Positions 39,987-61,750 of a stretch of 64,000 nucleotides of DNA are shown piece after piece. Source of the DNA: a virus; the IMG/VR virus record IMGVR_UViG_3300037516_001127, positions 1 through 64,000 of that record; one strand, given 5' to 3'. The notes under the pieces were generated by a model, which was given only the letters and a program-made list of their open reading frames with translations, ran no database searches and had not been told where the DNA came from. Each line of letters begins with the position of its first letter. The first letter of the stretch is position 1. Both the position numbers and the translations under genes were made by a program.

Positions 39987-42221
39987 TCAGAGCGGTTTCA
40001 TGTACTTGATTTCAGCTCCTTCGTTTCTGAATGTTTGTTCTGCGCCAGACCAAAAAAGTAGATCTCCGGCTTCTATCCAGTGGTTATCAAACTGCTCATC
40101 TCTTGCTGCTGCTACGAGGCGGGCTAGTTCTTTGGCTTCTGTTGCAGAACGAAAAACCTCATAAGGCACATCTTCGCTTATAAGCCCAGAAGAGCGATCT
40201 CCCTCAATTGCATTTCTCGTTACCACTCTAGTTGCCATTATCGGCCCTGGTTTATTAGCCATAATCTCATCACGATGGTTTTCCAAAGCCGCCTCAAGGA
40301 TATCCAAAAATTCTTCCTTTTGATCCTCGTCAAGCCAATCAAACCCGTTCCGAGGCCAATGCGTAGCACCCTTCATAGTCGGACCACTATTACCAGTAAC
40401 TTCAATCATCTCCATGCCCATCCGCCGATAATATTCTTCGTTTCTAGCGTTAAAAGCCGAACCAATACCTAAACCTTGAGAATCATCATTTATAAATAAT
40501 CTTTCATGCTGAACTACACCATCTGATCGAAAAAGCCGAGTACTAGACCCAACTGGCATACCATCGCTAGATCGCAGCATCATTACAACAGAAACCCCAG
40601 ACTCATCAAGATACGTTCGGCTCACATCACCCAAATAGGTTTTACCATCAGCCGCTACAAATTCCTGAATCATCAACTCATCAAAAAATTCGGTCCAATT
40701 ACGAATATTACCGGATTCCTCACCAAACCGAATTTTCTCCTCATCCCAATTCGCATGGGCCAAAGCGTAATCCTCATACCCATCATCGCTACTTTCAAAA
40801 TCGCTTAGTCGAGGTTCAGGATTTTCGGAAAGCCAATCATTAAGATCGCTAGCCGGATCTTGATAAGGCTCAAACTCGGAAGGGGAAACATCTGCTAAAA
40901 GGCTTTCTATGTCAGTGCTCATTTCTGGAGGTGCAGCTTCTATAATTGCAGCTTTTTGTTCAGCGTTTTTGCGTCGCTCAAGAAAAGCCGCCTCGGCAGC
41001 AGCATCAAAAGCTTCTTCATCCAAATCACCAGAAATCAAAGTTTTTTCGATTAACTCATTTTTCTTAGATTCAAAAACCGCTGTGCGTTTCTTCTCATGA
41101 TCCCGAACTGCTCTTTCAAGAGCCTTTGCAGCGTTTTGTTCTCTTTGAGTATTTTGAGCAATGGATAACTGCCTATCCGAATCAGCCGCTAACGCATAAT
41201 CTTCTTTGGCTTTAGCAGCAGCTGCTTCCCAGGCTTGAATTGCTTCTTCATAAGCTTTTTCTATTTCAAAATCTGTTAAAGAAATAGGAACACCTATAGC
41301 GTCATCAAACTGATCGTTACCTGTCGGAGCTTCAAAAGTCGTGCGTTCAGGAAAAGGATGAGCATCCAGCCACCAGCTAAGATAACCAGATTGACGCCTA
41401 GCTATTTCTTCATCAGTTAAAACAGGAAGTTTTTCAATTAAAAACTGTGGATCAGTTTCTTTCGGCAAAGGATTATCTTTATCCCATTCCTCCATATGCG
41501 AAATCAAATCTGAAGAAGCAGGAACCTTCGGAGCATCAGGTTTATCTTTAACAACTTCAGGGCCTACACTTGTAGGCTCTGGTTTATTTGCCCGCTCCGC
41601 CAATCTAGAAGCACGCAACGCCGCCTCTTCTCGCGCCCTAGATGCCTGCAAACCTGCATAAAAAGTTCGGGCTTTGGATTCCCACTCTTCCATCGCAGTA
41701 AACCGGGTAACCGCATGTTCACGAATCGCCTGCCTATCCGCAGCAGTCAATCGCCCGCTTGGCATGCTAGAAGTTGGGACAGGGTTTTCTTCATCCCATT
41801 TACGTTGAAAAGCGTAACGGGCAGCATCAATATCTTCGTTAGACATAACGAGCGGGAATTCATTCTTTGGCTCATCAGGTTTTGCTGTTTCAGCTTTTGG
41901 GGCAGGAGCGCTAACACGATTAGCTACGCGTTCATCTACCGATGTTGTACTGATTGGCTTTGGCTCTGCGTCACTATCAGGCTTATCAACAGGTTTTGGC
42001 TTCTTAGGCTTAGGAACTTTAACCGGATTCTTAGGCCGTTCCTGATTCGTGCCTTCCTGAAGCAACCCATCGTTATCAGCATCATCGGCATCAGGGTCGA
42101 ACCGGGCAACACGAATGTTCTTAGGACGCTTAATCTTCCCAATACCTCTTTTGCCAGCATCAGATAGCCTGCCGCCAAAATCTGCTTTAAACTCAAAAGA
42201 TTCGCCATCCAACTGTTTCAT
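39987..42221 (-). CDS. Tagged modular protein with a C-terminal GNAT acetyltransferase
   Basis: Tag FDPDADDADNDGLLQEGTNQERP; GNAT motifs HERLFINDDSQGLGIGS...GATHWPRNGFDW. Confidence 0.75.
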   Translation of the reverse strand: MKQLDGESFEFKADFGGRLSDAGKRGIGKIKRPKNIRVARFDPDADDADNDGLLQEGTNQERPKNPVKVPKPKKPKPVDKPDSDAEPKPISTTSVDERVANRVSAPAPKAETAKPDEPKNEFPLVMSNEDIDAARYAFQRKWDEENPVPTSSMPSGRLTAADRQAIREHAVTRFTAMEEWESKARTFYAGLQASRAREEAALRASRLAERANKPEPTSVGPEVVKDKPDAPKVPASSDLISHMEEWDKDNPLPKETDPQFLIEKLPVLTDEEIARRQSGYLSWWLDAHPFPERTTFEAPTGNDQFDDAIGVPISLTDFEIEKAYEEAIQAWEAAAAKAKEDYALAADSDRQLSIAQNTQREQNAAKALERAVRDHEKKRTAVFESKKNELIEKTLISGDLDEEAFDAAAEAAFLERRKNAEQKAAIIEAAPPEMSTDIESLLADVSPSEFEPYQDPASDLNDWLSENPEPRLSDFESSDDGYEDYALAHANWDEEKIRFGEESGNIRNWTEFFDELMIQEFVAADGKTYLGDVSRTYLDESGVSVVMMLRSSDGMPVGSSTRLFRSDGVVQHERLFINDDSQGLGIGSAFNARNEEYYRRMGMEMIEVTGNSGPTMKGATHWPRNGFDWLDEDQKEEFLDILEAALENHRDEIMANKPGPIMATRVVTRNAIEGDRSSGLISEDVPYEVFRSATEAKELARLVAAARDEQFDNHWIEAGDLLFWSGAEQTFRNEGAEIKYMKPL

Positions 42222-42227
42222 TTTGAT

Positions 42228-42527
42228 TTACCGACGGGCCCTTTGCTGCTTGTAATCAGCCAGAATGTCGCGCTCTTTAGGCTTCTGCTTCTTCACATAA
42301 AAATAGGCGTCACGCGGTTCACGACCAAAAAAGTTTAGGAAATCTGTTCGCCAGTCACGATCCCCCTCCAAATACATCAACATCAAATCATCCTGAGAAA
42401 CAAAAGAATCTTCCAACGCCCCAGTTAAAGCACGAAAATCGTTTCGCTCATGCGGACCCATGCTCGCCTTCTTCAAAAGGTCACGAACACGCCTAGCAAC
42501 AGCATCATCAATATCTTTAGGTTTCAA
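42228..42527 (-). CDS. Small hypothetical protein upstream of the GNAT protein
   Basis: RBS AGGAGG before a TTG start; 6 nt from the next gene. Confidence 0.65.
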   Translation of the reverse strand: MKPKDIDDAVARRVRDLLKKASMGPHERNDFRALTGALEDSFVSQDDLMLMYLEGDRDWRTDFLNFFGREPRDAYFYVKKQKPKERDILADYKQQRARR

Positions 42528-42592
42528 AACAGCCTCCTATGCGACTATAGTCTAGCTTGGTATCATCATTAATTTTGTAAAACAGGGAACTC

Positions 42593-43354
42593 ATGCCAAC
42601 TTTTCAAGAAATGACAGAACCACCACCGGAACCAGGACCAGCAGACTGGAACGACGAAGGTGTTGTTATCAAGAAAAATTTGCTACCTGAAGAAGTACTT
42701 ACTAACTACGAACAGTTTTGGCTTACCCAACACTCAGAAAACCCAAAAGGCTGGCCAGACTGCTTACCCTATATGAGACACCAAGAAGTTGCAGACCTTT
42801 ACTGCAGATCAGAAATTCAAGAAGTTATCACAGAGCTACTAGGACAACCAGCAGGACTCCACCTATGCCTCACAGGATGGGTCACCACCACTAGAAACTG
42901 GCACCAAGACTCATACCTAAACCCACATTTTGTTGGAGACAACTATGTGGCCGTATGGATCGCCCTAGCTGACATACATCCAGACTCCGGGCCGTTCCAA
43001 TATGTTGCCGGGTCACACAGATGGCCACAAGTTACCTTTTCAAAGATTTCGGAACATGTCGATACGACAGACCCATTATGGCCAAGCCATTCAGAACAAA
43101 TACTTACCCCGATTTTTGAAGAAGAAATAGAAGCCAGGAATGCGGAAATCACAACCTACCTTCCGAAACGTGGTGATGTCTTATTCTGGCATGGCCGTCT
43201 CATGCACCGTGGATCTCTTGCTAATACACTAGACATGGAACGACGGGCAGCAATAGGCCACTACTCGGGTATAAGCTCCAGACCAGACATGCCTAAGCCA
43301 GAAAAATCTGGTGGTGGATGGATCTTCCCTATTGGCGAAAAGCTTTACAGATAG
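42593..43354 (+). CDS. Phytanoyl-CoA dioxygenase-family 2OG-Fe(II) oxygenase
   Basis: WHQDS (HxD), VWIALAD, GSHRW, GDVLFWHGRLMHRG, distal R. Confidence 0.9.
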   Translation: MPTFQEMTEPPPEPGPADWNDEGVVIKKNLLPEEVLTNYEQFWLTQHSENPKGWPDCLPYMRHQEVADLYCRSEIQEVITELLGQPAGLHLCLTGWVTTTRNWHQDSYLNPHFVGDNYVAVWIALADIHPDSGPFQYVAGSHRWPQVTFSKISEHVDTTDPLWPSHSEQILTPIFEEEIEARNAEITTYLPKRGDVLFWHGRLMHRGSLANTLDMERRAAIGHYSGISSRPDMPKPEKSGGGWIFPIGEKLYR

Positions 43355-43366
43355 AAGGACTAAACA

Positions 43367-43939
43367 ATGGAATTGTTAAATGTTGGCTGCGGCACACATT
43401 ATGCTAAAGGGTGGGTAAATACTGACACCTGGGAAACTGATACGATTAAGCCTGATGTGCGAGTTGCCCCAGGTGAGCCGTACCCGTTTGAAGATAATAC
43501 GTTTGACGCTGTTTACCTTGGTCATGTCCTTGAACATATTGCTTGGCCCCAAGTTGCCGCATTTTTGAAAGACATATCGCGTGTAGCTAAAACTGACGCA
43601 AAAATTTTGATAACAGGCCCTGATGTCTACAAAACCATAAAACGTTGGTCAGATGGACAAGAACCGTGGTGGCTAGTTGAATCCGTTATGGAACAACAAG
43701 GGGTTAATTCAACCCCAGGAACAGTCGAATGGTGGGACGGAGCTTCACACCACTGGAACTGCCACAATGATCGGGTCCTAAAGCTGTTAGAAACCCTGGG
43801 TTTCACAAACATCAAAGACCGCTTTAACGATATCCCCAAAAACACTTCTGGTAAAACCTGGAAAAACGATGGGATTACTTGGCCTGTTGTAGGCTTCTGG
43901 CACTGGCAACTTGCTATAAGCTGCAACAACCCAAAGTAA
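43367..43939 (+). CDS. Class I SAM-dependent methyltransferase
   Basis: LLNVGCG, PFEDNTFDAVYLGHVLEH. Confidence 0.85.
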   Translation: MELLNVGCGTHYAKGWVNTDTWETDTIKPDVRVAPGEPYPFEDNTFDAVYLGHVLEHIAWPQVAAFLKDISRVAKTDAKILITGPDVYKTIKRWSDGQEPWWLVESVMEQQGVNSTPGTVEWWDGASHHWNCHNDRVLKLLETLGFTNIKDRFNDIPKNTSGKTWKNDGITWPVVGFWHWQLAISCNNPK

Positions 43940-43943
43940 AACC

Positions 43944-44210
43944 TCAGGTCTTAACGTAATTCGAAACAGCCTCAGACAAAGCGTCATGCGTTTCGCTGCT
44001 CGGATTATTCAAATACCGCACAGCTGCTTGTGCCGTATAATGCGATGCCACAGTATGCGGCAAACCCGCTATAAGTATCCCTAGCTGAGACCAAGCATTA
44101 GCAAGTTTTGGATCACGATTTTTTAAAGCCGTAAAACTTTCGCCAGCACAATAAACCGGATCAGGCAAATTGATTCCGTTTGAAGAATCTTCGCTTTCAA
44201 GATCAATCAT
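43944..44210 (-). CDS. Hypothetical protein
   Basis: 88 aa; overlaps the upstream stop. Confidence 0.55.
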   Translation of the reverse strand: MIDLESEDSSNGINLPDPVYCAGESFTALKNRDPKLANAWSQLGILIAGLPHTVASHYTAQAAVRYLNNPSSETHDALSEAVSNYVKT

Positions 44211-44466
44211 TATCTACCCTTTTCATGTAGTCAATATAGGCCTCAATTGACGGCCAAACAGTTTCCAACACAACACGAACCGTGCAAGTCCCACAATGAT
44301 AGATATCTTCATAGCGAGCGTCACGGTCATCAGACCAATCATCGTCATCAAAGTCCTGCAATTCGAGGATCTGACCTGCTTTAATAACTGATTCATCAAT
44401 CAGCTTCAGATAATACAACTCATCAAATTCTTCTTCAACACGCTTCTTACGCTTAAATATGCTCAT
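44203..44466 (-). CDS. Hypothetical acidic protein with HCxxC
   Basis: RBS GGAGG; strong promoter upstream. Confidence 0.65.
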   Translation of the reverse strand: MSIFKRKKRVEEEFDELYYLKLIDESVIKAGQILELQDFDDDDWSDDRDARYEDIYHCGTCTVRVVLETVWPSIEAYIDYMKRVDND

Positions 44467-44490
44467 TTGTCCTCCGTAGATAGTTGGCAG

Positions 44491-44519
44491 ACCATACCAC
44501 CCCCTGATATACCTGTCAA
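44491..44519 (-). promoter_or_regulatory. Near-consensus SigA promoter
   Basis: TTGACA-17nt-TATGGT with extended TG on the minus strand. Confidence 0.75.
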
Positions 44520-44590
44520 CAATCTAAAATGCCAAAAGATTCACATGATAGCGACACTGCCGCTTCGCCAATCACGACTATGGTCATAGC

Positions 44591-44896
44591 ATGTATTACT
44601 CAGCAGACAACGAACTTATGCTGGGAAACGTCCAAGTCGCCAGAGCGGATCGGCTACCATGTCCAATCTGCGGTCACCCAACAGGGGACTGCACAGGGAC
44701 AGGTCATGCCCCCATTCACGTCCTGGGCCCAGACGCATACATATCAATGGACTACGAAGAAACCTTTATAGTTAAAGAAGATGTCTACGAAAATCGTTGG
44801 ATTTCCCCCTACACAGAATGTAGGGTAAAAGTAGCTGTAGCCGGAACAGCGATACCGCTTTCCAAAGCTAAAGCCCTCGGTCTTACTAGCATTTAA
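44591..44896 (+). CDS. Hypothetical protein with a CPICGHPTGDC zinc-finger-like motif; probably leaderless
   Basis: TATGGT-6nt-ATG with no SD; precedes the RNR. Confidence 0.6.
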   Translation: MYYSADNELMLGNVQVARADRLPCPICGHPTGDCTGTGHAPIHVLGPDAYISMDYEETFIVKEDVYENRWISPYTECRVKVAVAGTAIPLSKAKALGLTSI

Positions 44897-44930
44897 ATTC
44901 AACTATCCAACATCAATACAGGAGTTAACC

Positions 44931-46847
44931 ATGATTACACCCGAGTTCCTTGAATCTTACGACGCCCAAATCCCGCCCTGGGGTTTCGGTGGCATGGGCG
45001 AGGCAACAATGCTTAGAACATATTCACGTCCAATCGCAGGACTGGACCGGAACGAAACTTGGCTTGAAGTTTGCACCCGTGCAGTCAATGGGGCAATCGA
45101 CATCGGAGCCGAACTCAGTACAGAAGACGCCGAAAAGCTTTTTGACCACATGTATAACCTTCGCGCATGCGTCTCAGGCAGAGCACTCTGGCAACTGGGC
45201 ACACCACTAGTTGAAAGAATGGGCGGAGCAAGCCTCCAAAACTGCTACTTCAGCGACGTCGAAAAGATCGAAGATTTCGAATTCATTTTTGACATGCTAA
45301 TGGTCGGAGGCGGAGTCGGATTTTCTGTAGAACGATCAAAGATCCACGAACTACCAAAAGTAAAAAATGGTGTATCCATCACACATGAGCGCAGCAACGA
45401 TGCCGATCTTATCGTCCCAGATAAACGAGAAGGTTGGAGCCGCCTCCTGCACGCAGTACTCAAATCATACTTTTACACAGGAAAGTCTTTTAGCTACTCA
45501 ACAATCCTAATCCGAGAATACGGTGCGGCCCTCAACTCTTTCGGCGGAACAGCTTCAGGGCCAGGAGCGCTAATCGAAGGCATCGAAAAGATTTGCAAAA
45601 TCATGGATAACCGGATTAGCAAAAAGCTTCGATCCATTGACGTCCTTGACATCGTCAACATCATTGGCGAAATGGTCGTCGCAGGCTCATCCCGACGTTC
45701 AGCCCAGATTGCTATTGGCGACCCAGATGACATCCTTTTCCTCCGAGCTAAGAACTGGGAATCAGGGACCATCCCAGGATGGCGTGGAAACTCAAATAAC
45801 TCCATCTTTGCTGACGGTTGGGAAGAAATCCCGACCGAGCTTTGGAAGGGATATCAAGGTACTGGCGAACCTTATGGGCTTATTAACCGCAAGCTGGCTA
45901 GGAAAGTTGGTCGCCTTGGTGAGGTTATGCCAGATCCGAGTGTTGATGGTTTCAATCCGTGTGCCGAAATTGCGTTGGCTTCAGGAGAATCTTGCAACCT
46001 TGCAACGCTTTTCCTGCCTAACATTCGTTCGTTTGAAGAGTTCTGTGAGATTAGCCGACTCCTATATTTGGTTCAGAAGTCGACAACAGAACTTTCGTAC
46101 CCTTACGAAAAGACAACTAAAATTGTTCGTAAGAACCGGCGTCTAGGACAGTCAATCACTGGCGTTTTGCAGTGTAGCGAAGAGCAGCTTTCTTGGCTTG
46201 ACCCAGGGTACAAGGCTCTCCGTAAGCTTGACGCAGAGTACTCTGCTGAGCATGGTATCCCCGAGTCGATCAGACTGACAACTGTTCAGCCGTCTGGGAC
46301 GCTCTCAATCCTTCCCGGTGTCCTCCCAGGGGCGCATCCAGGGTTTGCCCGCCACTATGTGCGGCGTGTCCGGTTCGGGTCCAACGATCCGCTTGTGAAA
46401 GCTTTGCGTGAACGAGGCCATGATATCGAATATGACATGAACCTTGATGGGACAAGAAACCATACCCGCCAAGTAGTTTCATTCCCTTGCATGTCCCCAG
46501 AAGGATCAATACTCGCAGAGGAACTTTCCGCTATCGACCAGATGGAATGGGTGAAACGCCTTCAAACCGAATGGGCTGACAACGCTGTGTCGGTAACAAT
46601 CTATTACCGCAAGCAAGAACTCCCAGAAATCCAGGAATGGCTTTCAAACAATTACAACAACTCAGTCAAATCCATGTCTTTCCTACTTCATCAGGACCAC
46701 GGTTTCGCATTGCCTCCTTATGAAGAAATCGACGAAGAAGGCTACAACAAGATGCTCGCAAAGATCGACCCGACCGTTCCCCTTGTCAAAACCGAAGGCG
46801 AACTGATCGACGACAACTGCGACACAGGCCACTGCCCGGTCCGGTAA
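44931..46847 (+). CDS. nrdJ: Class II (adenosylcobalamin-dependent) ribonucleotide reductase
   Basis: GRALWQLG, LQNC, GGGVGFS, RRSAQI, NPCAEI, TVQPSGT, C-terminal CDTGHCPVR; no beta subunit nearby. Confidence 0.92.
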   Translation: MITPEFLESYDAQIPPWGFGGMGEATMLRTYSRPIAGLDRNETWLEVCTRAVNGAIDIGAELSTEDAEKLFDHMYNLRACVSGRALWQLGTPLVERMGGASLQNCYFSDVEKIEDFEFIFDMLMVGGGVGFSVERSKIHELPKVKNGVSITHERSNDADLIVPDKREGWSRLLHAVLKSYFYTGKSFSYSTILIREYGAALNSFGGTASGPGALIEGIEKICKIMDNRISKKLRSIDVLDIVNIIGEMVVAGSSRRSAQIAIGDPDDILFLRAKNWESGTIPGWRGNSNNSIFADGWEEIPTELWKGYQGTGEPYGLINRKLARKVGRLGEVMPDPSVDGFNPCAEIALASGESCNLATLFLPNIRSFEEFCEISRLLYLVQKSTTELSYPYEKTTKIVRKNRRLGQSITGVLQCSEEQLSWLDPGYKALRKLDAEYSAEHGIPESIRLTTVQPSGTLSILPGVLPGAHPGFARHYVRRVRFGSNDPLVKALRERGHDIEYDMNLDGTRNHTRQVVSFPCMSPEGSILAEELSAIDQMEWVKRLQTEWADNAVSVTIYYRKQELPEIQEWLSNNYNNSVKSMSFLLHQDHGFALPPYEEIDEEGYNKMLAKIDPTVPLVKTEGELIDDNCDTGHCPVR

Positions 46848-47198
46848 ATGGGCTTACAAGCATTAGCTCTAGCAGGTGCCCCAGCCCTGCTAGAGCAAGC
46901 TTCACAACTAGTAACTAAAAGAGGCCTAGCTAAAGGCATCACATACGACAACGGCTCAATAGACGCCACTGGGGCACTATGCCTAGCAGGCGGAGCTAAA
47001 ATAAAAACACTAAACGAAGACCCCATAGCAGAACTATCCACAATCAAAAGACCACTAGTACTAGTAATAGTAGAAGCGTTAGAAGCAGAACTAGACTCCG
47101 ACCTTCACACCTGGAACGACCTACCTACCACCACCACAAACATGGTAGCCGCCACGTTCAAATCTTTAGCAGACAAAATATCCATAGCCACAACATAA
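46848..47198 (+). CDS. Hypothetical protein (actinophage GAL...WND family)
   Basis: GSIDATGAL...LHTWND; abuts the RNR stop. Confidence 0.6.
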   Translation: MGLQALALAGAPALLEQASQLVTKRGLAKGITYDNGSIDATGALCLAGGAKIKTLNEDPIAELSTIKRPLVLVIVEALEAELDSDLHTWNDLPTTTTNMVAATFKSLADKISIATT

Positions 47199-47208
47199 CG
47201 GCACACGC

Positions 47209-47236: not shown

Positions 47237-47257
47237 GATCAACTGCTTCAGACTAGA

Positions 47258-48729: not shown

Positions 48730-49083
48730 TTATCTTCTGGTACCTTTAGAACGACGAGTAGCCATTTCATCAGATGGCACCCGCTTAGAGATACGATCAC
48801 CTACAGAATCAGAAACCTCCGGCCCGCCAGGACCCTCAGCCATATACTCCCCAGGAGACCCAGATACATACTTCTGATAATCCCTAAAAAGCTCCTTAGA
48901 CTTATCACTCCTACTGTAATAATTTAAAGCCGCCAAATATATGTCCCTCTTCTCCTCAAAATTTTCAGAATCAGAAGAAAAAACCTCAGCCAAACCCAAA
49001 ATATGAGAACGCTTAAAAGCAGAACCAATGTTAATAAACTTAACCAGGATGCTCATCTTTTCTACGTCTGTAAATTCGCTCAT
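48730..49083 (-). CDS. Small protein coupled to the upstream GNAT protein
   Basis: ATGA overlap with the stop of 49080..53078 (start MSEFTD). Confidence 0.6.
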   Translation of the reverse strand: MSEFTDVEKMSILVKFINIGSAFKRSHILGLAEVFSSDSENFEEKRDIYLAALNYYSRSDKSKELFRDYQKYVSGSPGEYMAEGPGGPEVSDSVGDRISKRVPSDEMATRRSKGTRR

Positions 49084-53078: not shown

Positions 53079-53341
53079 GGTTCAAAAATCCCAACTTTGA
53101 TTAAGCCTTTAACTTCGTCAGCTACTTCGTCCTCAAAGATTTCGTAAAGCTCTTTATTTGAGTAACCCCAGCCGGAACCGATGAGCGGCTCAAGTTTCTT
53201 AATATTTTTGATGTAAATACGTTTCGCCCATTCGGTTGCTTCTTGTTCATAAGCTGGATCGCAGTAAACTTCGACGCCTTTGTCATTTTCGACAAATGCG
53301 TACATGAGTGTCTTGTTGTAAATAATTTTTCCAATTCTCAT
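53075..53341 (-). CDS. Small protein downstream of the kinase protein
   Basis: RBS AGGAGA; GTGA overlap with the next gene. Confidence 0.65.
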   Translation of the reverse strand: MRIGKIIYNKTLMYAFVENDKGVEVYCDPAYEQEATEWAKRIYIKNIKKLEPLIGSGWGYSNKELYEIFEDEVADEVKGLIKVGIFEP

Positions 53342-53380
53342 CTTTTTCTCCTATTTAAAATATTTGTGAAACCTAAAAAA

Positions 53381-56300
53381 TCAGACTGCACCATTTGGAA
53401 TAATTGATTCCAGAATAGAATCAGGATCTGTATCCAAAATCCATTGTATACGATCAGCGGTAGTGCTTACCGATTCGCTCGCCGTAAAGTCGGCACCTGC
53501 ACCATACATGATTTCAGCTATAGCAGCGCTCACCTCTTTAGCAGAATCTGCGTCGCGTAGACGACCCTGCGCCCGCTGAATAGCACTTATGAGCTCTGCT
53601 CTGGTTTCAACCCAGTTGTCACGACCGGGTCCACTACGTTTATAAATTTCCAAAACAAGATAATTAGTTCTTCTACTGCCACCCTCGGCGCTATGACTCC
53701 ATTCGCTAAGAGTAGTCCATTGGGGATCGTGGGGGTTAAACCCTGCCCCAAATCCCATTCCGTGATCAATTGGGATCAGGCTAACTCTACCTTCAGCATC
53801 CCGTGTGCTCATGATGTTAGCTATGTGTCGGTCGTCGTTAAGGATTGTCCAGTCTAGCAGAGTCATTGATATTAGGTCATCTGCCCCAATATCGGTTGGT
53901 TGTCCTGCTATACCCATAGAGACATCGTCACCAAAACTGTTTTGAGCTAATTCGATAACGATTGGCCTGGCAACAGAACCAGTATTACCTACCCCATATT
54001 CGCGATGAATAATGGGCACGCCATCAATGGGTGCTTGTTCGACAGGCCGGGGGGCACCCCATCTGAATGAGCTTGTAGCGAACCCAAATCTTTCAGCAAT
54101 ATGTGCTCCGAGCATTTCAGAAAAATCTTCACGAATGCCAGTAGAGACACTATTTCCGTATTTGATGGCGATACGTTGTTTTGTTTCACGGTCATAGAAC
54201 ATTTGTATGCCGTTAGCGCCTTGATCCGAACCGCCGATTGGGAGGAATCTTTCGCTCATAGGGTTATCAGCAATAAAGTCGATTAGTTCTTGTTTGTCCT
54301 CTTCCCATACCCTGACTTGATCAGGGCGAGTAGGTTTACGGTCACCCCTCTCCGTAACTATCATTGCATCTAGATCTGATTTAGCTAGAATGGTTTCAGC
54401 ATCAGAAGCATCCAATTGATCTACATATGTTTGAATATCTTCCGGGTCAACATACGTTGAATACCTTGGCAGTTCTAAAGACTCAACGTCAACACTATTA
54501 TCAACAATTGAGTTGGCAAGAAGATCATCAGGGACCTCAGACAAAGCGCCACCACCCGAAACATGATCCTTAGCTTCGGCAGCATTATGGATACCAGGTT
54601 CGCCCTCAGCAGGTGTCGCTACCTCGCCTGGCAAGTGGAAACCGGCAGCGTCAACGCCACCGAGTTTAGCGTCCAACCCGTCATCAACTTTTTGGGCTAA
54701 ACCTGTAGCCGCTTCACGGGCTTTAGAAGTAGATGCGGTAGATGGGTCAGAAATACCTTCTGGTTTAGGTGGATACATTTCGTTGCGTGTACGAACGTTA
54801 CGCTCTTCAAGCCTCTGGATGTGGTCCATGAGAGCTTCGGCTGCAGGTACGTTATTACGCTCCATCAGTTCCGATGCTTGAACCCAGAGTTCCCGAGCGT
54901 ATTGTTCGCTATCAAAAATGCTTATAGGGCTTTTACCGTCAACTATTGTGTCAACACTAGTTTTGATGCTTTGAACTAGTTGTTCTTGCTGCTCGGCTTC
55001 AGCTTTGGCTTGGGCTTCTCGTTCGTTAACGTCTCGTGCTAGTCGGCTAGAGGTATCTACACGATCAGCGATATCCGAAGTGACATTTCTAGGTGTGGGA
55101 TCGACCGCATCTGGGGTCGTCGGAGCAGGAACTACGTCTGGCACAGCAGCTTGCGCTTTTTCTATATCGTCTAGTTTCTGCTGCTCATCTTTAAGGCCAG
55201 CGTCAATAAGCTTGTCTATCATTTGACCCACCCGCATCTGGTCACGTTGCAGGTAAGTGTTTCCAGGTTTGCGGTATGCCCTAAGTTTCTCTAAGAGCTC
55301 TTTATAAGATTCGCCACCTACCGCAGGATCGCTGATAGCTGCATCAATTTCTTGTGTGAGGCTTTCGAATCCTTCGTTGTCAAATTCTGGTGTGCTAGGT
55401 GTTTCTGGTGGCCTTGGTGGTACCGTCCGGCCTTCTGCCTCTATTGGCGGTACTTCTGGTGCAGGTCCAAGAGATGGGGGTGTTTCGATAGGCTGGTATT
55501 GGTCTATTACTTCTGAGGGTTGGATTGCCTCGGGTGCCGCTTGTGGTTGTCCTGGGGGGTTGGCAAATGCTTCCCAGTCTGGTGGAGCGTATTGGCGTGG
55601 GGTTTCAGTGGCGGCAGGGGTTTCTTGTGGTGACGCAGCAGGAGTTGAATCACCCCAGATATCGTCTTCAATTTTGAGCGGTTGAGGGATGTAGGTGGCT
55701 TCAGGGGTTTCAGTTTTTGGTTGCTCGGGTTCAGGTTTAGGTTCAATCCTAGGTTCAGGTTTAGGCTTCTCGGGCTTTACTTTTCTGCCTATCTCAAACC
55801 CTTTATTTACTTCAGGATCTCTATCTGAACGGGTTGATAAAGCTCTTTTTAAACTCTGATCAAACTCTGGATTCTCCCTAAAAAAATTGGCTAGGTCTTC
55901 CTCTGTAGTAGTGCCATCAAGTAGGCCTGCTCCGAGACGGTCATATTCTTTTGCCCAATCAGTATCATAAGAAATTACACCCGTCTCATCGCTATTGACT
56001 TTAGGATTGCCATTAGCGTCAACCGAACGGAAAAGTGCTCCTGGAAGATTGGTATCATTGATACCTTCAGCTAGTTCGGCTCCAATCTCCTCACCTCCCA
56101 GGAACTCAGCTAAACGCTGCTCGCGAGTTAAACCGAGTTCAGGATCTCGGCCCTCTGCGCCTCTAACATGTCCTGCTATTCTGCTTATAGCTTCAGAACG
56201 TTCATCAGGAGTCAAATCATAATTATCTACTTCGTATTCGACCGCACCAGCTTGTTGATCCAGTGGCAAAATTTGTGCAGCATTTACAGTTTGTAGTTTC

Positions 56301-59038
56301 TGAAATTCCTCTTCAGGTATATCAACATAACGTACTCTTCGAACAAGGTCCTCAGGATCTTGATATGAGGTTTCACCTGTCCGGGGATCAGTGACAAGCT
56401 CTTGAACACCATCTGGCAACTTGCCAAAAGCATGACCTTCAGCCCTTCGCGCGTCTTCAGCCCACCACATTCCCGTGTACTGCTCTTCGTCTACACCATT
56501 CGTATACCGTGTTGAACCCAACGGGGTTCCCTCAGAATCAACAATATCCCCCCTGAACAAACGGCGATAACCCTCAGGGATAGGCGGCAAACCATTCTGC
56601 GCTTCCACAACATCCGGCTGCGGTGGAGCCACAGGCAGATTCGTTACGTCATCTAGCGGTTTATCCCCAAAAGGACTTGGCCCAACAGGATTTCCGTCTT
56701 TATCTAGTCCGAGTTTTTCACGGAGTTCGATTAGGCGTCGGGTTCGACGCTCTTGAGGTGTTTCCCCTGGTGGGCCGTCTTGAGGGGTTTCAGGTGTATT
56801 TTCGGGTTCGTTATCGTTTCCACTAGTAGGTTTACGCGGTGGACGTTTAACCGGCTTTACTTCGCCTTCGGGGGTTTCACCCTCGATCAGGGGAGTTACG
56901 TTTTCTTCACGATCGCGTTCTAAAGTCGCACGAATCCGCTCAGCTCTTTCACGGTTACGTTTCTGAGCAGCAGTTTCCTTAGGCTTCTCAACGAAAGGAT
57001 TGGGACCCTCTTCAGGTCGTTCCGCTGGAGGCTCAATACCCTCAAAAGGATTCGGAGGCCCTTCAGGCTTATCCGCTTCGGGGACATCACCTTCGCCCTC
57101 AAGCAGGGGAGTTATGTTTTCTTCAGCACCTTCAGGCGGCTTTAGCCTTGCCTGAATCCGTTCGCGCATTTCCCGATTACGCTTTTGGGTAGCAGTTTCC
57201 TTAGGCTTGACAGGTTCGGGGGGAACTTCAGGAGCGGCCTGTGGTTCGCCTGACTCAGGGGTTCCGTCGGGCTTGTCAGCTTCGGGAACATCACCTTCAG
57301 GCTTGTCAGCTTCAGGGACATCACCCTCAAGCAAGGGGGCTACGTTCTCTTCACGATCGCGTTCTAAAGTCGCACGAATCCGCTCAGCTCTTTCACGGTT
57401 ACGCTTTTGGGCACGCGTCTCTTTGGGCTTTGGTGGTTCTTCCGGCCCACCCGGCTCAGGAGTCGGAGTCTCCTCTGGCTCAGGAGTCTCTTCAGGAGTA
57501 CCTGGCTCAGGTTCACCCTCTGGTGGCTCTTCAGGGTTTGGAATCTCCTCACGGGCACCAGGTTCAGGAGGAGCCTCAGGAGCTGGAGTCTTCTCCGGCT
57601 CACCTGGCTTAGGAGTCTCTTCAGGCGGAGCTTCAGGTGGCTCTTCTGGTTTACCGGGTTCAGGAGTAGCTTCAGGTTTATCCTCAGGAGCAGCTTCGGG
57701 CTCACCCTCTGGAGTCTTTTCAGGAGTTGCCTCAGGAGTTCCTGGCTCAGGAGTCGGAGTCTCTTCAGGAGTCGGCTCAGGTTCACCCGGCTCAGGAGTC
57801 GGCTCAGGCGTAGCTTCAGGCGGAGCTTCAGGCTTACCCTCAGGCTTACCCTCACCCTCGCGTTCGCGTCGCATCATCTCCTCAAAATCTTTGAGGTCCT
57901 GCTTCGCTTTCTCCCTCTCCTGCTTCGCTCTCTCCTTTTCCTCCTTTATTCTCTCCCTCTCCTCTTTCTCCCTCTCCTTTAGCCATTCATCAGATTCTCT
58001 ATCACGTTTGAAATATTTTTTATCAAGATATTCTGCTATCTGATCCAGATCTTCAGAACTATAAGGATTTTCATTATTACGCTTCTTAATCCAATCTAAC
58101 CATGCGTCAATTTCCGCAAGATCCCTGTCTCGTTCTAAGAAGTCGCTACCACCAAACGAAAGTCGTCTAGCTTCCACCTTCCGTCTTGCCTCTTCAAGAA
58201 GCTTCTTAACCTCACGTTCCTTTTCCTTATCCCTAACAACAGGCTTACCTTCCGGCTTACCCGGCTCAGGACCATCTTCAGGAGGATAAAGATCTTCCGG
58301 TTCAGGCGTTGAAGGCGTATCAACCCAAGGATCTTCCGGTCCAGAACCACCAGAATTTGGCATATTCGGGTCATTCGCCCAAACAGTCGGCGCATCAGGA
58401 TTATTAGGATCATAATTAGGGTCCCAAGGACGATCAGAAGGATTATGGGTAGCCATATATCGGTCATAAATAATCTGAGCATTTGCTTGTTCGCCTGAAT
58501 CACCAAGGATATTCCTTCGGTTGCCAGACTCATAAAGAGCTCTAGCTCTAGCCGGGCTATAAGCACGACCGCTACCAGGTGTAGGAGGTGGAGTCGTACC
58601 CCCAGGAGCGTTAGGAGGTGGAGTTGCACCCCCACCAGGATTATTGGTGCCACCAGGATTGCTGGTACCACCGCCCCCAGGACCACCACCACCCGGGTTA
58701 TTAGGCCCACCACCACCAGGAACGCCACCACCAGGAACACCAGGCCGCTCCTGAGTCGTACCCTCCTGAACTAAACCATCAGCATCAGCATCAGCAGCAT
58801 TAGGATCATAAGCAGCAGGACGCTTCCCCCCGCCACCACCACCGCCAACACCATCACCATCACGCCTAAAAGCCTCACCAATAGCCTCAGCTAAACTCCC
58901 ACCACCACCACGACCACCACCACGACCACCCCCACCAATACGGCGAAGAATACCCATACCAAACATCTTCGCTTCAACAGCATCATCAGACGAATCAAGC
59001 GAAGCGTTAATCCGATCCTCAATTGGGACATCACCCAT
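53381..59038 (-). CDS. Tagged modular protein, 1885 aa: Gly/Pro and Pro/Glu repeats, ART-like segment, C-terminal HipA/PI3K-like kinase
   Basis: Tag AYDPNAADADADGLVQEGTTQERP; kinase motifs GANG...IAIKY...SEMLG...LDWTILNDDRHIANIM...IPIDHG. Confidence 0.75.
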   Translation of the reverse strand: MGDVPIEDRINASLDSSDDAVEAKMFGMGILRRIGGGGRGGGRGGGGSLAEAIGEAFRRDGDGVGGGGGGGKRPAAYDPNAADADADGLVQEGTTQERPGVPGGGVPGGGGPNNPGGGGPGGGGTSNPGGTNNPGGGATPPPNAPGGTTPPPTPGSGRAYSPARARALYESGNRRNILGDSGEQANAQIIYDRYMATHNPSDRPWDPNYDPNNPDAPTVWANDPNMPNSGGSGPEDPWVDTPSTPEPEDLYPPEDGPEPGKPEGKPVVRDKEKEREVKKLLEEARRKVEARRLSFGGSDFLERDRDLAEIDAWLDWIKKRNNENPYSSEDLDQIAEYLDKKYFKRDRESDEWLKEREKEERERIKEEKERAKQEREKAKQDLKDFEEMMRREREGEGKPEGKPEAPPEATPEPTPEPGEPEPTPEETPTPEPGTPEATPEKTPEGEPEAAPEDKPEATPEPGKPEEPPEAPPEETPKPGEPEKTPAPEAPPEPGAREEIPNPEEPPEGEPEPGTPEETPEPEETPTPEPGGPEEPPKPKETRAQKRNRERAERIRATLERDREENVAPLLEGDVPEADKPEGDVPEADKPDGTPESGEPQAAPEVPPEPVKPKETATQKRNREMRERIQARLKPPEGAEENITPLLEGEGDVPEADKPEGPPNPFEGIEPPAERPEEGPNPFVEKPKETAAQKRNRERAERIRATLERDREENVTPLIEGETPEGEVKPVKRPPRKPTSGNDNEPENTPETPQDGPPGETPQERRTRRLIELREKLGLDKDGNPVGPSPFGDKPLDDVTNLPVAPPQPDVVEAQNGLPPIPEGYRRLFRGDIVDSEGTPLGSTRYTNGVDEEQYTGMWWAEDARRAEGHAFGKLPDGVQELVTDPRTGETSYQDPEDLVRRVRYVDIPEEEFQKLQTVNAAQILPLDQQAGAVEYEVDNYDLTPDERSEAISRIAGHVRGAEGRDPELGLTREQRLAEFLGGEEIGAELAEGINDTNLPGALFRSVDANGNPKVNSDETGVISYDTDWAKEYDRLGAGLLDGTTTEEDLANFFRENPEFDQSLKRALSTRSDRDPEVNKGFEIGRKVKPEKPKPEPRIEPKPEPEQPKTETPEATYIPQPLKIEDDIWGDSTPAASPQETPAATETPRQYAPPDWEAFANPPGQPQAAPEAIQPSEVIDQYQPIETPPSLGPAPEVPPIEAEGRTVPPRPPETPSTPEFDNEGFESLTQEIDAAISDPAVGGESYKELLEKLRAYRKPGNTYLQRDQMRVGQMIDKLIDAGLKDEQQKLDDIEKAQAAVPDVVPAPTTPDAVDPTPRNVTSDIADRVDTSSRLARDVNEREAQAKAEAEQQEQLVQSIKTSVDTIVDGKSPISIFDSEQYARELWVQASELMERNNVPAAEALMDHIQRLEERNVRTRNEMYPPKPEGISDPSTASTSKAREAATGLAQKVDDGLDAKLGGVDAAGFHLPGEVATPAEGEPGIHNAAEAKDHVSGGGALSEVPDDLLANSIVDNSVDVESLELPRYSTYVDPEDIQTYVDQLDASDAETILAKSDLDAMIVTERGDRKPTRPDQVRVWEEDKQELIDFIADNPMSERFLPIGGSDQGANGIQMFYDRETKQRIAIKYGNSVSTGIREDFSEMLGAHIAERFGFATSSFRWGAPRPVEQAPIDGVPIIHREYGVGNTGSVARPIVIELAQNSFGDDVSMGIAGQPTDIGADDLISMTLLDWTILNDDRHIANIMSTRDAEGRVSLIPIDHGMGFGAGFNPHDPQWTTLSEWSHSAEGGSRRTNYLVLEIYKRSGPGRDNWVETRAELISAIQRAQGRLRDADSAKEVSAAIAEIMYGAGADFTASESVSTTADRIQWILDTDPDSILESIIPNGAV
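56880..57860 (-). repeat. Pro/Glu low-complexity repeats plus three KPKET.AQKRNRE..ERI.A.L units
   Basis: Repeated ggctcaggagtc / cttcagg units; near-identical blocks at about 56900-56985 and 57345-57430. Confidence 0.9.
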
Positions 59039-59040
59039 AA

Positions 59041-59220: not shown

Positions 59221-59230
59221 AAATCAACCT

Positions 59231-61750
59231 TTATCTAGCCGCACGAACAGGGGGAGTCCAGAATACTGGCTCAGCTTCAAAAAGCTTCAAAAGATCATCT
59301 GGATCAATATCAGTAACCTCTTTAAGTCTAGACGCAAGACCACCCGTCACTTTACGCATATCGTCTTCAACTTCATTTCTAGCAGCATTCAATATCCGGC
59401 CAATTGCCTCATTTATCTCCAAAGCTGAATCGGCTTCCCTCAGAGAAGCCTGCGCCGCACGAATAGCAACCAGAAGATCGGCCTTACTCAGAGTATCTGC
59501 AATACCATTTTTGTCATGAGTCAAAATTTGTTGAATACGACCCACCATATTCCGATTGTCTTGCATCAGGCCGCCAGTCAATCCATTCACAGGGTCAGCA
59601 ATCGATTCACGCTCATCCATATTAGAAATGCCATGATCAATCGGCACAAACCATGCCATATCACCATCAGGATTCTCACCAACAAAATAATTTCCATAAT
59701 GCCGATCCCGATTTTGGATAATCAAGTCCAAAAGCAAACCAGAAACAAGAGAATCAGCAGAAGCCTGCATCGGATACCCAGAACCAATAGCAATATCCAA
59801 ACTCAAACCATCAGCAGGATCACCCGACCGATTCGCATAATTATGCAAAAGCTCAAAAACCATTGGCCTAACAGTTCGCGGTTGCACCGCTTGCGTAGGA
59901 AAACCTCCAACCGGAGGAGCACCACCCCAACGCATCGACCCATAAGCAAAACCTAACCGCTCAGCAATATGCGCACCCAACATTTCGTTAATATCTTCAT
60001 CTGGGAAAACTGAAGTACCAAAAGCATACTTAATACCGACACGCTGCTGACTAACCCGGTCGTAATACATCACCACACCGTTAACGCCAGCTCCTCTACT
60101 GAGAGGAATAAACCTGCCAGCGATCTCACTATTAGACACTCGTTCGGCACGCTCAAGAGCAGCTAAAAATGGATGCAAATCATCCGGTGGCGGCCACTTA
60201 AAATCCGTTAAATCGACAGGGTCGTACTTTATTATCTGATCCGCACGATCAATCCCAGCTTGCAAATCGTTCTGCATTAAAACATTGCTAAAAATTGCTT
60301 CAACAAGAAAATCGTCAGGAACCTCAGATAAAGCACCACCATCAGCTAAATGCTGAACCGCACCCTCTAAATCCATTCCACCATCAACAACAGGGATCTC
60401 AACAGGCAAATGGAAACCCTCAGGGCTTCTAAGACCCAAAACGCGATCCGCGCCTTTAACAACGCTAGTCCTAGGCATCAAACCCTGACGGGCAGGCCTA
60501 AGTTCCCCATTTGCTGAGACTGATTCGTCGCGAGAAGGCCCATCGTATTCTCTGCCCTTAGCGACCTTAGCGTAAATTTCATTAACAAAGTCCATGAGCA
60601 TGACTTCTTGATCTGCGGAGATATTAGGCATTTGTTCAGCGACGGCTTTATCGCGTTGAGCAATCCACTCGTCGAAACGTTTTTTATTCTGGTCCCTGAT
60701 ATCAGCATTAATTGCATCTATGCGATTACGTTCCGCACCATAAAGCTTATTATTTTCATAAATTGCAGGCTCAACCTGAAGCTCGTATTCTCGTTGATAT
60801 TTTGTTTTGCCTCCAGGCCTTTGACCCCCCCTAGTTTTGATATATGGATCTAGCTTCTTTAATTCATCCGCCCTAGCTTTAAGTCGATCCCGTTCAGCGT
60901 TTATCTTGTCCCACTCAGGACCCTCAAAAGAAGCTCTTTTTTGCCGCAGACGTTGAGGTTCAGGATTCTTATCCACCCACTTTTTCTGAAGAAACACCTT
61001 ATTTTTATTTCCGTTATTATAAATATGGGTTTTTATAGTTCTTGCTAACTCCCTCAAAGATTCAAGATCAGCAGCTGATCCAGACTCCTCAAACTTTTTT
61101 GTTAGCTTGTCATATTCTTTTTCTAAGCTATCAGCCAAACTTATAGGTTCACGCTCCTCAGGCTTAGCGACAATAGGCTCAGCCGGAACAGGTGTACTGC
61201 GAGTACGAACCTTACGAGCGTTTCGCATAACAGCAGACCTTCTAGGCGCAGGACGCATAGCAGGCACACCAGGAGTAGCAGGACGCTCCCACGGCGTACC
61301 ATCCTGAACCGTATTATCTTTACCAGGATCACCATTTATAGCGTCAGGATCATACGCCTCATCCTCATCACCAATAGCACGACCCAAAACTTTCAAACTA
61401 ATAGGCGCTAAAGAAGACTTGACCCTAAGATTAGACTTAGCTTTCTTACGCTTAGAAACATTCTTCTCTAACCAAAAAAACATTTCCTCATCAAACCCAT
61501 GAGCAACCATATAATCGCTAACCTCAACAGGCATAGCCCTACTCATAGAATCACCCAAAAATCTTATAATCTTAAAAAGCATTACCTCTTTTTTAGACTC
61601 AGGATCTAAACCAGGTTGAGACTCCAAGGAACCAACGTACTGAGACATCTGCCGTATAAAACTTTTACCATTCTTAGACCAATCCCAGACACGATTCTTA
61701 CGGGTATCATAAGGACGATCTTTAACAATCAGATTAGATTTAGCAGGCAT
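59231..61750 (-). CDS. Tagged modular protein, 839 aa, with a C-terminal HipA/PI3K-like kinase
   Basis: Tag variant AYDPDAINGDPGKDNTVQDGTPWERPATPG; kinase motifs GAGVNG...VGIKY...NEMLG...LDLIIQNRDRHYGNY...VPIDHG. Confidence 0.8.
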   Translation of the reverse strand: MPAKSNLIVKDRPYDTRKNRVWDWSKNGKSFIRQMSQYVGSLESQPGLDPESKKEVMLFKIIRFLGDSMSRAMPVEVSDYMVAHGFDEEMFFWLEKNVSKRKKAKSNLRVKSSLAPISLKVLGRAIGDEDEAYDPDAINGDPGKDNTVQDGTPWERPATPGVPAMRPAPRRSAVMRNARKVRTRSTPVPAEPIVAKPEEREPISLADSLEKEYDKLTKKFEESGSAADLESLRELARTIKTHIYNNGNKNKVFLQKKWVDKNPEPQRLRQKRASFEGPEWDKINAERDRLKARADELKKLDPYIKTRGGQRPGGKTKYQREYELQVEPAIYENNKLYGAERNRIDAINADIRDQNKKRFDEWIAQRDKAVAEQMPNISADQEVMLMDFVNEIYAKVAKGREYDGPSRDESVSANGELRPARQGLMPRTSVVKGADRVLGLRSPEGFHLPVEIPVVDGGMDLEGAVQHLADGGALSEVPDDFLVEAIFSNVLMQNDLQAGIDRADQIIKYDPVDLTDFKWPPPDDLHPFLAALERAERVSNSEIAGRFIPLSRGAGVNGVVMYYDRVSQQRVGIKYAFGTSVFPDEDINEMLGAHIAERLGFAYGSMRWGGAPPVGGFPTQAVQPRTVRPMVFELLHNYANRSGDPADGLSLDIAIGSGYPMQASADSLVSGLLLDLIIQNRDRHYGNYFVGENPDGDMAWFVPIDHGISNMDERESIADPVNGLTGGLMQDNRNMVGRIQQILTHDKNGIADTLSKADLLVAIRAAQASLREADSALEINEAIGRILNAARNEVEDDMRKVTGGLASRLKEVTDIDPDDLLKLFEAEPVFWTPPVRAAR

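What the first reader, a model, noticed from the sequence alone, without database searches (positions are those of the whole stretch)
42033..61357. Shared N-terminal tag (Y/F)DPxAxDxDxDGLVQEGTxQERP in four otherwise different proteins
Seen at about 42033-42101 (FDPDADDADNDGLLQEGTNQERP), 52659-52730 (AYDPNAVDADADNLVQEGTNQERPATPG), 58742-58813 (AYDPNAADADADGLVQEGTTQERPGVPG) and 61280-61357 (AYDPDAINGDPGKDNTVQDGTPWERPATPG). It always lies within the first ~160 residues and is followed by a disordered linker. DxDxDG...E is the Ca2+-binding Dx[DN]xDG loop pattern. One carrier lies on the far side of the capsid gene and RNR island, which suggests the tag is portable. Inference: a Ca2+-dependent docking or capsid-targeting peptide.
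Basis: partly seen in the sequence, partly recalled or inferred. Interest (0 to 1): 0.85.

Follow-up and report, generated by a model that had tools for sequence, protein, structure and literature searches.

The report
Portable acidic tag on phage effector proteins
A short, highly conserved acidic motif marks six large, mostly unrelated proteins in the head-gene region of an uncultured actinobacterial phage, and hundreds of enzyme- and toxin-carrying proteins in related environmental phages. It is most likely a previously undescribed address label that loads these proteins into the virus particle for delivery into the host.

Summary
The motif is real, but it lies on the minus strand. The 97.5-kb genome holds six copies, not four; two lie just beyond the window. 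Shuffled sequence gives none.

Core consensus: [YF]-D-P-x-A-x-D-[AG]-D-x-D-G-[IL]-V-Q-[ED]-G-T-x-W-E-R-P, preceded by basic residues.

- **Distribution.** A profile finds 956 protein clusters, 442 at E<=1e-10, all metagenomic and unnamed. It finds nothing in Pfam, NCBIfam, PDB sequences, 50,697 deposited phage genomes or the searched literature.
- **Position.** Most relatives carry it at residues 3-49, as part of a ~70-85-aa module that AlphaFold2 folds confidently without any known structural neighbour. Some proteins carry it twice.
- **Payloads.** These include ADP-ribosyltransferases, Zeta toxin, PI3/4- and HipA-like kinases, RNase T, GNAT, DUF3626, a peptidoglycan-binding domain and, in one group, the prohead protease itself.
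- **Context.** All six local carriers lie inside the structural gene array. Five long tag-bearing contigs share a capsid protein 70-76% identical to this one.

Best reading (about 0.45): a new constant delivery module of polymorphic/polyvalent phage effectors. It would act like the T4 capsid-targeting sequence or the MuF domain.

Calcium binding rests only on a local Excalibur-like DxDxDG resemblance. No binding partner was shown. The scan had noted the same motif on this same genome, not on other DNA.

The parts
42033..42101 (-). Tag copy A (core, 23 residues) at residues 41-63 of carrier A
   Evidence: Minus-strand translation; regex hit
39987..42221 (-). Carrier A, 744 aa. P/K-rich linker after the tag; weak GNAT-like C-terminus.
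   Evidence: Pfam Acetyltransf_10 at E 0.02, below the cut-off. No BLAST similarity to the other carriers. Lies between the capsid gene and the adaptor/neck genes.
52659..52730 (-). Tag copy B at residues ~117-140 of carrier B
49080..53078 (-). Carrier B, 1332 aa, GTG start overlapping the upstream small ORF; no Pfam domain above threshold
   Evidence: Clusters with nine giant metagenomic carriers. No similarity to the proteases of phages DalanDe or Cantare.
58742..58813 (-). Tag copy C at residues ~75-99 of carrier C
   Evidence: 87% identical to copy B
53381..59038 (-). Carrier C, 1885 aa. G/P-rich linker, long P/E-rich repeats, C-terminal PI3/PI4-kinase-like module.
   Evidence: Pfam PI3_PI4_kinase E 6.7e-4, below the cut-off, and PHROG 3162. 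Homologous to carrier D over ~480 aa.
61280..61357 (-). Tag copy D (divergent, with a 3-residue insertion in the acidic loop) at residues ~131-157 of carrier D
59231..61750 (-). Carrier D, 839 aa, C-terminal kinase-like module
61753..64000 (-). 3' part of carrier E (1759 aa; whole ORF at genome 61753-67032). Its tag lies outside the window at genome 66772-66840 (L003:6772-6840). It contains an H-E-x-x-H motif.
   Evidence: no Pfam hit
47258..48586 (-). Major capsid protein (HK97 fold with an N-terminal delta domain), the candidate docking partner
   Evidence: Pfam Phage_capsid E 4.9e-40. 47-48% identical to Gordonia and Brevibacterium myophage capsids. 70-76% identical in five long tag-bearing contigs.
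42593..47198 (+). Plus-strand island separating carrier A from the capsid gene: PhyH-like dioxygenase, methyltransferase, class II ribonucleotide reductase, DUF6197

Best explanation
The tag is the core of a previously undescribed, lineage-specific constant module of polymorphic/polyvalent phage effector proteins. Its core appears to form a small beta-hairpin after an acidic D-x-D-x-D-G loop, preceded by basic residues.

It most likely acts as a delivery label. It would bind a conserved component inside the assembling prohead (the capsid protein's delta domain or inner face, the protease or the portal), so that whatever enzyme is fused to it is enclosed in the head and ejected into the host with the DNA. 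The prohead protease may then cut at or near it.

What is shown: the motif, its conservation under selection, its portability across unrelated payloads, its restriction to phage contigs, and its association with the head module.

What is inferred: virion incorporation, the binding partner, any cleavage and any metal binding.
For: 1. Six in-frame copies against 0 in shuffles, with synonymous divergence between copies.
2. 162 confirmed stretches in IMG/VR. 956 clusters among 1.84 billion representative proteins, 442 at E<=1e-10. Of the top 150, 89 tags begin within the first 30 residues and 17 proteins carry two.
3. The architecture is a constant tag plus a variable payload. There are 21 unrelated carrier groups. 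Payloads are ADPrib_exo_Tox (9.4e-71), ART-PolyVal (2e-61), Zeta_toxin (2.5e-24), PI3_PI4_kinase (8.8e-20), HipA_2, RNase_T (1e-17), DUF3626 (3.9e-28), GNAT and GmrSD_C. In polymorphic toxins the N-terminal domain specifies transport and the C-terminus carries the activity (PMC12226406, PMC5576092).
4. Two payloads need a virion route. One is the S78 prohead protease, fused in front of the tag in seven loci. The other is PG_binding_1, in small proteins with two tag cores and no signal peptide (4.6e-17), encoded between terminase and portal.
5. Genomic position. All six local carriers lie in the minus-strand structural array, from portal to neck. About 35 of 79 loci show protease, MuF or capsid within 6 kb.
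6. A conserved partner is plausible. All five long tag-bearing contigs encode a capsid protein 70-76% identical to this one, whereas the 47-48% relatives DalanDe and Cantare lack the tag.
7. Precedent. The T4 N-terminal capsid-targeting sequence loads the internal proteins and the Alt ADP-ribosyltransferase and is then cleaved. SPN3US ejection proteins have 111-130-residue N-terminal propeptides (PMC7411985, PMC9958956).
Against: - There is no direct evidence that any carrier is a virion protein. No cultured representative and no proteome exist.
- Some tagged genes sit among replication and nucleotide-metabolism genes rather than head genes (L010, L013).
- This phage's own prohead protease lacks the tag, so the tag is not the general route into the head.
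- The tag need not be N-terminal. The local ortholog of the N-terminal-tag kinase family carries a conserved 120-aa extension in front of it. In giant proteins the tag lies 650 residues or more inside.
- The core alone, which is the form present in this window, was folded with low confidence (pLDDT 50-59).
Confidence: 0.45

Rival explanations
1. The tag is a recognition and cleavage site for the S78 prohead protease. It would delimit modules in polyproteins and free the payloads (or remove an N-terminal propeptide) after assembly. This could hold together with the targeting role.
For: The tag sits at module boundaries. Some proteins carry two tags, each preceding a payload block, for example L042 with the second tag before Zeta toxin plus ART. 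In seven loci it lies directly behind the S78 domain. T4 and SPN3US proteases cut after a Glu-containing motif that also ends their targeting propeptides (PMC7411985); here an invariant Q-[ED] precedes G-T.
Against: The capsid protein, the obligate substrate, has no similar sequence near its expected maturation site. In canonical relatives the motif is buried in a confidently folded ~70-aa module rather than an extended linker. About 25 conserved positions is far more than proteases usually need. The cleavage specificity of this S78 protease is unknown.
Confidence: 0.15
2. The tag is a metal-dependent (Ca2+) structural mini-domain or spacer, like Excalibur or TSP3 repeats. It would stabilise or rigidify long disordered proteins and carry no address information.
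For: The acidic loop aligns locally with an Excalibur repeat (hhalign, 22 columns, probability 61%). Pfam Excalibur gives sub-threshold hits. The profile cross-hits an 8-repeat Excalibur protein. Tandem copies occur in small proteins. The model has very little regular secondary structure despite high confidence, as metal-wrapped repeats do.
Against: It does not explain restriction to phage contigs, the preference for the extreme N-terminus, the link to effector payloads and head modules, or the strong conservation of the non-acidic half (V-Q-E-G-T-x-W-E-R-P). Phage assembly takes place in low-Ca2+ cytoplasm (general knowledge). The glycine at loop position 6 is replaced in about one copy in six, and position 12 is Thr, not Glu/Asp.
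Confidence: 0.15
3. The tag docks the effectors onto one common host component, such as RNA polymerase, the ribosome or the envelope, after they are made or injected. It would be a substrate-localisation module rather than a packaging signal.
For: Many payloads are host-modifying enzymes. Some tagged genes lie in early-type neighbourhoods with RNR, primase and methyltransferase.
Against: One cytoplasmic host target is hard to reconcile with a peptidoglycan-binding payload and with fusion to the prohead protease. The tag tracks a capsid lineage, although these phages probably also share related hosts.
Confidence: 0.12
4. The tag anchors proteins on the outside of the capsid, as Ca2+-dependent decoration or display.
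For: Excalibur-type loops are extracellular. The peptidoglycan-binding payload would make sense on a virion surface.
Against: ATP-, NAD- and acetyl-CoA-dependent payloads have no substrates outside cells. The prohead protease works inside the shell.
Confidence: 0.06

Closest known systems
T4 capsid-targeting sequence (CTS) of IPI-III and Alt, and the N-terminal propeptides of SPN3US/phiKZ-type ejection proteins
   Same: A short peptide near the N-terminus, shared by otherwise different proteins, that loads them (including an ADP-ribosyltransferase) into the prohead for ejection. It is portable to foreign cargo (PMC9958956, PMC7411985).
   Different: There is no sequence relation. The T4 CTS is ~10-20 aa and binds a separate scaffolding core. 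Here the phage has an HK97-type capsid protein with a delta domain and an S78 protease. The motif is a ~25-aa acidic loop plus hairpin, often part of a 70-85-aa folded module, and can lie deep inside giant proteins. Function is untested.
MuF-family polymorphic toxins of temperate phages (Jamet et al. 2017, PMC5576092; PMC12226406)
   Same: A constant N-terminal phage-head-associated domain fused to highly variable C-terminal toxin or enzyme domains, encoded in the head module next to the portal.
   Different: The carriers have no MuF domain. In this phage the MuF-like region is fused to the portal protein instead. The constant part here is much smaller and has no family assignment.
Polyvalent proteins of phages and conjugative elements (Iyer et al. 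2017, PMC5512222)
   Same: Giant multi-domain proteins predicted to be packaged and injected. They share payload types: ART-PolyVal, kinases, GNAT, ParB_N, KTSC and zincin-like peptidases.
   Different: That paper does not mention calcium, EF-hand or DxDxDG. The tag would be an additional, undescribed module of such proteins in one aquatic phage lineage.
Excalibur calcium-binding domain (PF05901) and the DxDxDG class of Ca2+ loops
   Same: The local pattern P-x-A-x-D-x-D-x-D-G-I-V-x-E aligns over 22 columns.
   Different: It is below the Pfam threshold (10-15 bits against 22). The conserved Cys is replaced by Gln. The conserved G-T-x-W-E-R-P half has no counterpart. Excalibur is extracellular and cellular; this motif is phage-only.
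Encapsulin cargo-loading peptides and the C-terminal targeting tail of the HK97 protease (own knowledge; papers not retrieved here)
   Same: Short peptides that dock cargo to the interior of HK97-fold shells.
   Different: Those are usually C-terminal and not acidic-loop motifs. No similarity was tested or found.

Membership tests
Excalibur (PF05901) | Score above the Pfam gathering threshold (22 bits) | tested here: not met
   Best 10.3-15.2 bits, E 0.03-0.9, in three relatives. No hit for the window's own copies.
Excalibur (PF05901) | D-x-D-x-D-G-x-x-C-E loop with the conserved Cys | tested here: not met
   D-x-D-x-D-G-[IL]-V is present, but Gln replaces Cys in all 63 copies examined. The local hhalign match covers 22 columns at 61% probability.
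Canonical EF-hand loop | 12-residue loop with a bidentate Glu/Asp at position 12 and flanking helices | tested here: not met
   Position 12 is an invariant Thr. The AF2 model has no helices in the module.
Ca2+-binding DxDxDG motifs in general | Actual metal binding | not testable with these tools
   Only sequence resemblance is available. D1, D3 and D5 are invariant or nearly so, and the glycine at position 6 is present in 47 of 63 copies.
T4-type capsid-targeting sequence | Shared peptide near the N-terminus of otherwise unrelated head-internal proteins | tested here: met
   89 tags among the top 150 hits start within 30 residues of the N-terminus. In this genome the tags lie 41-149 residues in.
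T4-type capsid-targeting sequence | Sufficient to load cargo into proheads, then removed by the prohead protease | not testable with these tools
   No cultured phage and no proteome exist.
MuF polymorphic toxins | N-terminal Phage_Mu_F domain in the toxin-bearing protein | tested here: not met
   No MuF hit in any carrier scanned. A MuF-like signature sits at the C-terminus of the portal ORF, by reading.
Polyvalent proteins (Iyer 2017) | Two or more effector-type domains in one phage-encoded polypeptide in a packaging context | tested here: met
   Relatives: Zeta_toxin plus ADPrib_exo_Tox (L042); S78 plus ParB_N plus KTSC (L064); ART-PolyVal. For the window's own carriers only weak single-domain hits were found.
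Secretion signals (Sec/Tat, T7SS Y-x-x-x-D/E) | Hydrophobic h-region or twin-arginine motif; an acidic residue four positions after the Tyr | tested here: not met
   By reading the sequences: no hydrophobic stretch follows the tag, and the residue four positions after Y/F is an almost invariant Ala.

The most novel reading that the evidence does not exclude
The tag is a genetically portable cargo-loading peptide for an HK97-fold capsid that also works as a Ca2+ switch. In Ca2+-rich water the loaded loop would keep effectors folded or tethered inside the virion. In the low-Ca2+ host cytoplasm it would let go. Any enzyme given this ~25-70-aa label would then be packaged and injected. That would explain why a whole lineage of aquatic phages swaps toxins, kinases, ARTs and nucleases behind one label.
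Probability: 0.15. Interest if true: 0.85.

Novelty: new variant of a known kind. Interest (0 to 1): 0.62.

Why it matters
If the tag is a packaging label, it defines a large, unannotated arsenal of injected host-modifying enzymes: at least 956 protein clusters. These occur in phages of abundant aquatic Actinobacteria, where no cultured model exists.

It would also give a simple sequence handle for finding such effectors in metagenomes. And it would offer a short peptide for loading foreign proteins into HK97-type capsids.

Even if the function differs, this is a well-conserved, foldable, phage-only module with no Pfam, PDB or literature record. It merits a family definition.

Tried and rejected
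- **Complex prediction.** Capsid protein alignment A5 plus Ca plus tag alignment A2 scored 0.00, with the verdict 'no answer'. This is evidence neither for nor against binding.
- **Known-family and structure searches with no usable result.**
  - Pfam and NCBIfam on tag segments.
  - PDB sequences with the tag profile, best E 0.47.
  - Foldseek against PDB, best E 0.8.
  - VIA-align wide, best Z 3.5, the mitochondrial calcium uniporter N-terminal domain, within the noise range.
  - BFVD, best E 0.3. The two top hits share 48-54% identity over 24-40 columns and may simply contain the motif.
  - ESM Atlas, no usable hit.
- **Deposited phages.** tblastn against 50,697 deposited phage genomes found nothing with the canonical tag module, the kinase-like payload or the tandem-tag protein. 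In the last case only the peptidoglycan-binding part matched.
- **Literature.** String searches for motif fragments gave only unrelated hits.
- **Is carrier B the prohead protease?** Rejected. It has no similarity to the proteases of DalanDe or Cantare. The real S78 protease is at genome 71352-73439.
- **Recent duplication or gene conversion.** Rejected on synonymous differences between copies.
- **Secretion signal or T7SS motif.** Rejected by reading the sequences.
- **Is the core alone an autonomous fold?** Inconclusive. pLDDT was 50-59 with only 8 sequences.
Full report
**1. The observation**

The four intervals translate to unrelated peptides on the plus strand. On the minus strand they give the quoted motifs inside four long ORFs.

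The window is the first 64 kb of a single 97,543-bp viral contig with 47% G+C. It is an IMG/VR record that CheckV estimates at 66% complete.

A six-frame regex scan finds six copies, all in frame in large minus-strand ORFs. The fifth is in the 1759-aa ORF that runs off the window's end. The sixth is in a 621-aa ORF just beyond it. Thirty shuffles gave none.

Between copies, roughly a quarter to almost half of the codons that encode the same residue differ synonymously. The motif is therefore maintained by selection on the protein, not by recent duplication.

With the tag masked, carriers C and D share a ~480-aa C-terminal kinase-like module. F shares its catalytic-loop region. A, B and E are unrelated to the rest.

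**2. Genomic setting**

The capsid protein (47258-48586) has the HK97 fold and is 47-48% identical to those of Gordonia and Brevibacterium myophages. A WhiB gene at 39561-39917 points to an actinobacterial host.

Read in the direction of transcription, the minus-strand structural array is as follows:
- portal fused to a MuF-like C-terminus;
- S78 prohead protease fused to a 2H-like region, without a tag;
- two untagged ORFs;
- carriers F, E, D, C and B, with small ORFs between them;
- the capsid protein;
- a plus-strand island: dioxygenase, methyltransferase, class II RNR;
- carrier A;
- WhiB and a PAPS-reductase-like gene;
- adaptor, neck, sheath, tube and baseplate genes.

All six carriers therefore lie inside the late structural region.

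**3. Distribution**

- Back-translated patterns found 162 confirmed tag stretches in IMG/VR.
- The consensus from 63 distinct copies shows invariant or near-invariant positions that were not part of the search pattern: the three Asp residues, the Ala, the Pro and the Y/F.
- A 50-position profile searched against 1.84 billion representative proteins gave 956 hits at E<=1e-3 and 442 at E<=1e-10.
- Ten sampled clusters are all metagenomic and unnamed.
- The tag is absent from 50,697 deposited phage genomes.
- Among the genomes of 185,579 prokaryote species it occurs on only 10 MAG contigs. Eight of these hold close homologs of the viral carriers; two (one only 611 bp) gave no such match.
- Pfam, NCBIfam, PDB sequences, the ESM Atlas and a text search gave nothing.
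- All five long tag-bearing contigs (105-169 kb) encode a capsid protein 70-76% identical to this one and carry one to three tag matches each. The more distant cultured relatives DalanDe and Cantare have none.
- A shorter variant of the core also occurs in a different phage lineage, related to large Microbacterium phages.

**4. Anatomy of the module**

In most relatives the tag lies at residues 3-49. There it continues into a ~70-85-aa module.

AlphaFold2 folds that module with pLDDT 85-90 over residues 10-70, and almost without regular secondary structure. No solved or predicted viral structure matches it convincingly.

The window's copies keep only the ~25-aa core, followed by P/G/K/A/R-rich sequence. 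In a second model the core appears as a beta-hairpin (V-Q / turn / x-W-E), but with low confidence.

The acidic loop aligns locally with an Excalibur repeat. It fails the Pfam threshold and lacks the conserved Cys.

The tag need not be N-terminal:
- Carrier F is orthologous to the N-terminal-tag kinase proteins but has a conserved 120-aa extension in front of the tag.
- In giant proteins the tag lies 430-1300 or more residues inside.
- Some proteins carry it twice.

**5. What is attached to it**

After masking the tag, 65 carriers fall into 21 unrelated groups.

Pfam finds these payloads across 93 scanned relatives:
- ADP-ribosyltransferases;
- Zeta toxin;
- PI3/PI4- and HipA-like kinases;
- RNase T;
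- DUF3626 and DUF7178;
- GNAT;
- GmrSD_C;
- ParB_N and KTSC;
- a peptidoglycan-binding domain.

In one group the S78 prohead protease sits directly upstream of the tag in the same polypeptide.

This is the architecture of polymorphic toxins and polyvalent proteins. There the constant part specifies the delivery route and the variable part the activity (PMC12226406, PMC5576092, PMC5512222).

Two payloads argue specifically for a virion route:
- The prohead protease must enter the prohead.
- The peptidoglycan-binding domain, which has no signal peptide and is encoded between terminase and portal, must reach the wall.

The homolog of that peptidoglycan-binding protein in the metagenome-assembled phage DSL-LC01 lacks the tags. 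The tag is therefore an add-on.

**6. Mechanism**

The best-supported reading is a delivery label that loads effectors into the head. The closest analogues are the T4 capsid-targeting sequence, which loads Alt and the internal proteins and is then cleaved, and the long propeptides of SPN3US ejection proteins (PMC7411985, PMC9958956).

The steps from 'constant module of effectors in the head region' to 'binds the prohead interior' are inferred. No partner, cleavage or metal binding has been shown.

Rivals are protease site, structural metal-binding spacer, host-docking module and external decoration. They are weighed in their own sections. The first may well coexist with targeting.

**7. Verdict**

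This is a new, unannotated module within a known kind of system. I rate it of moderate to high interest, because it opens a large hidden effector repertoire and a testable packaging tag.

Noticed in passing
genome 73537-75906 (outside the window; L085/L086): The portal protein (Pfam Phage_portal, E 4.6e-54) appears fused to a C-terminal region with a MuF-like signature, in one 789/790-aa open frame. In relatives the MuF-like part aligns separately.
   Followed up: partly
genome 71352-73439 (outside the window; L085): The S78 prohead protease domain is fused to a long C-terminal extension. The extension contains an H-x-T motif typical of 2H phosphoesterases/RNA ligases and a very acidic, Cys-rich tail. 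Cultured relatives encode an 'RNA ligase' as a separate gene after the portal.
   Followed up: no
window 39561-39917 (-) and 38365-39531 (-): A WhiB-family regulator (E 3.5e-13) and a PAPS-reductase-domain protein sit between carrier A and the neck genes. This fits the whiB- and cysH-type auxiliary genes reported for freshwater actinophages (PMC10914622).
   Followed up: no
window 42593-47198 (+): An opposite-strand island interrupts the structural array: a PhyH-like dioxygenase, a methyltransferase, a class II (B12-dependent) ribonucleotide reductase and DUF6197.
   Followed up: partly
genome 69180-70148 (outside the window; L003:9180-10148): An untagged 322-aa ORF shares the 'pre-kinase' segment with carrier D (E 1e-4). 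It is conserved next to tagged genes in several relatives.
   Followed up: partly
window 48730-49092, 53075-53341; genome 66995-67315: Small ORFs of 88-120 aa alternate with the carrier genes, some with overlapping start/stop codons. They have no family hits, and only the 106-aa one has a homolog in the nearest relative. They could be chaperones or immunity-like partners.
   Followed up: no
P0066 (781 aa, representative library): The tag profile cross-hits an unrelated protein with eight Excalibur repeats (Pfam Excalibur, E 1.7e-37). This shows that the acidic half of the tag is Excalibur-like.
   Followed up: yes
L104:7962-8549 and OQ999401.1 45530-45955: A small protein with two tag cores, a linker and a peptidoglycan-binding domain is encoded between terminase and portal in a different phage lineage. 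Its homolog in the metagenome-assembled phage DSL-LC01 has the same C-terminal domain but no tags.
   Followed up: yes
BFVD entries A0A6J5NDH2 and A0A1B0XTL8: The two top, non-significant structural hits share 48-54% identity with the module over 24-40 columns. They may be UniProt-listed tag carriers. One is annotated as a 1394-aa DNA 3'-5' helicase of an uncultured phage.
   Followed up: no
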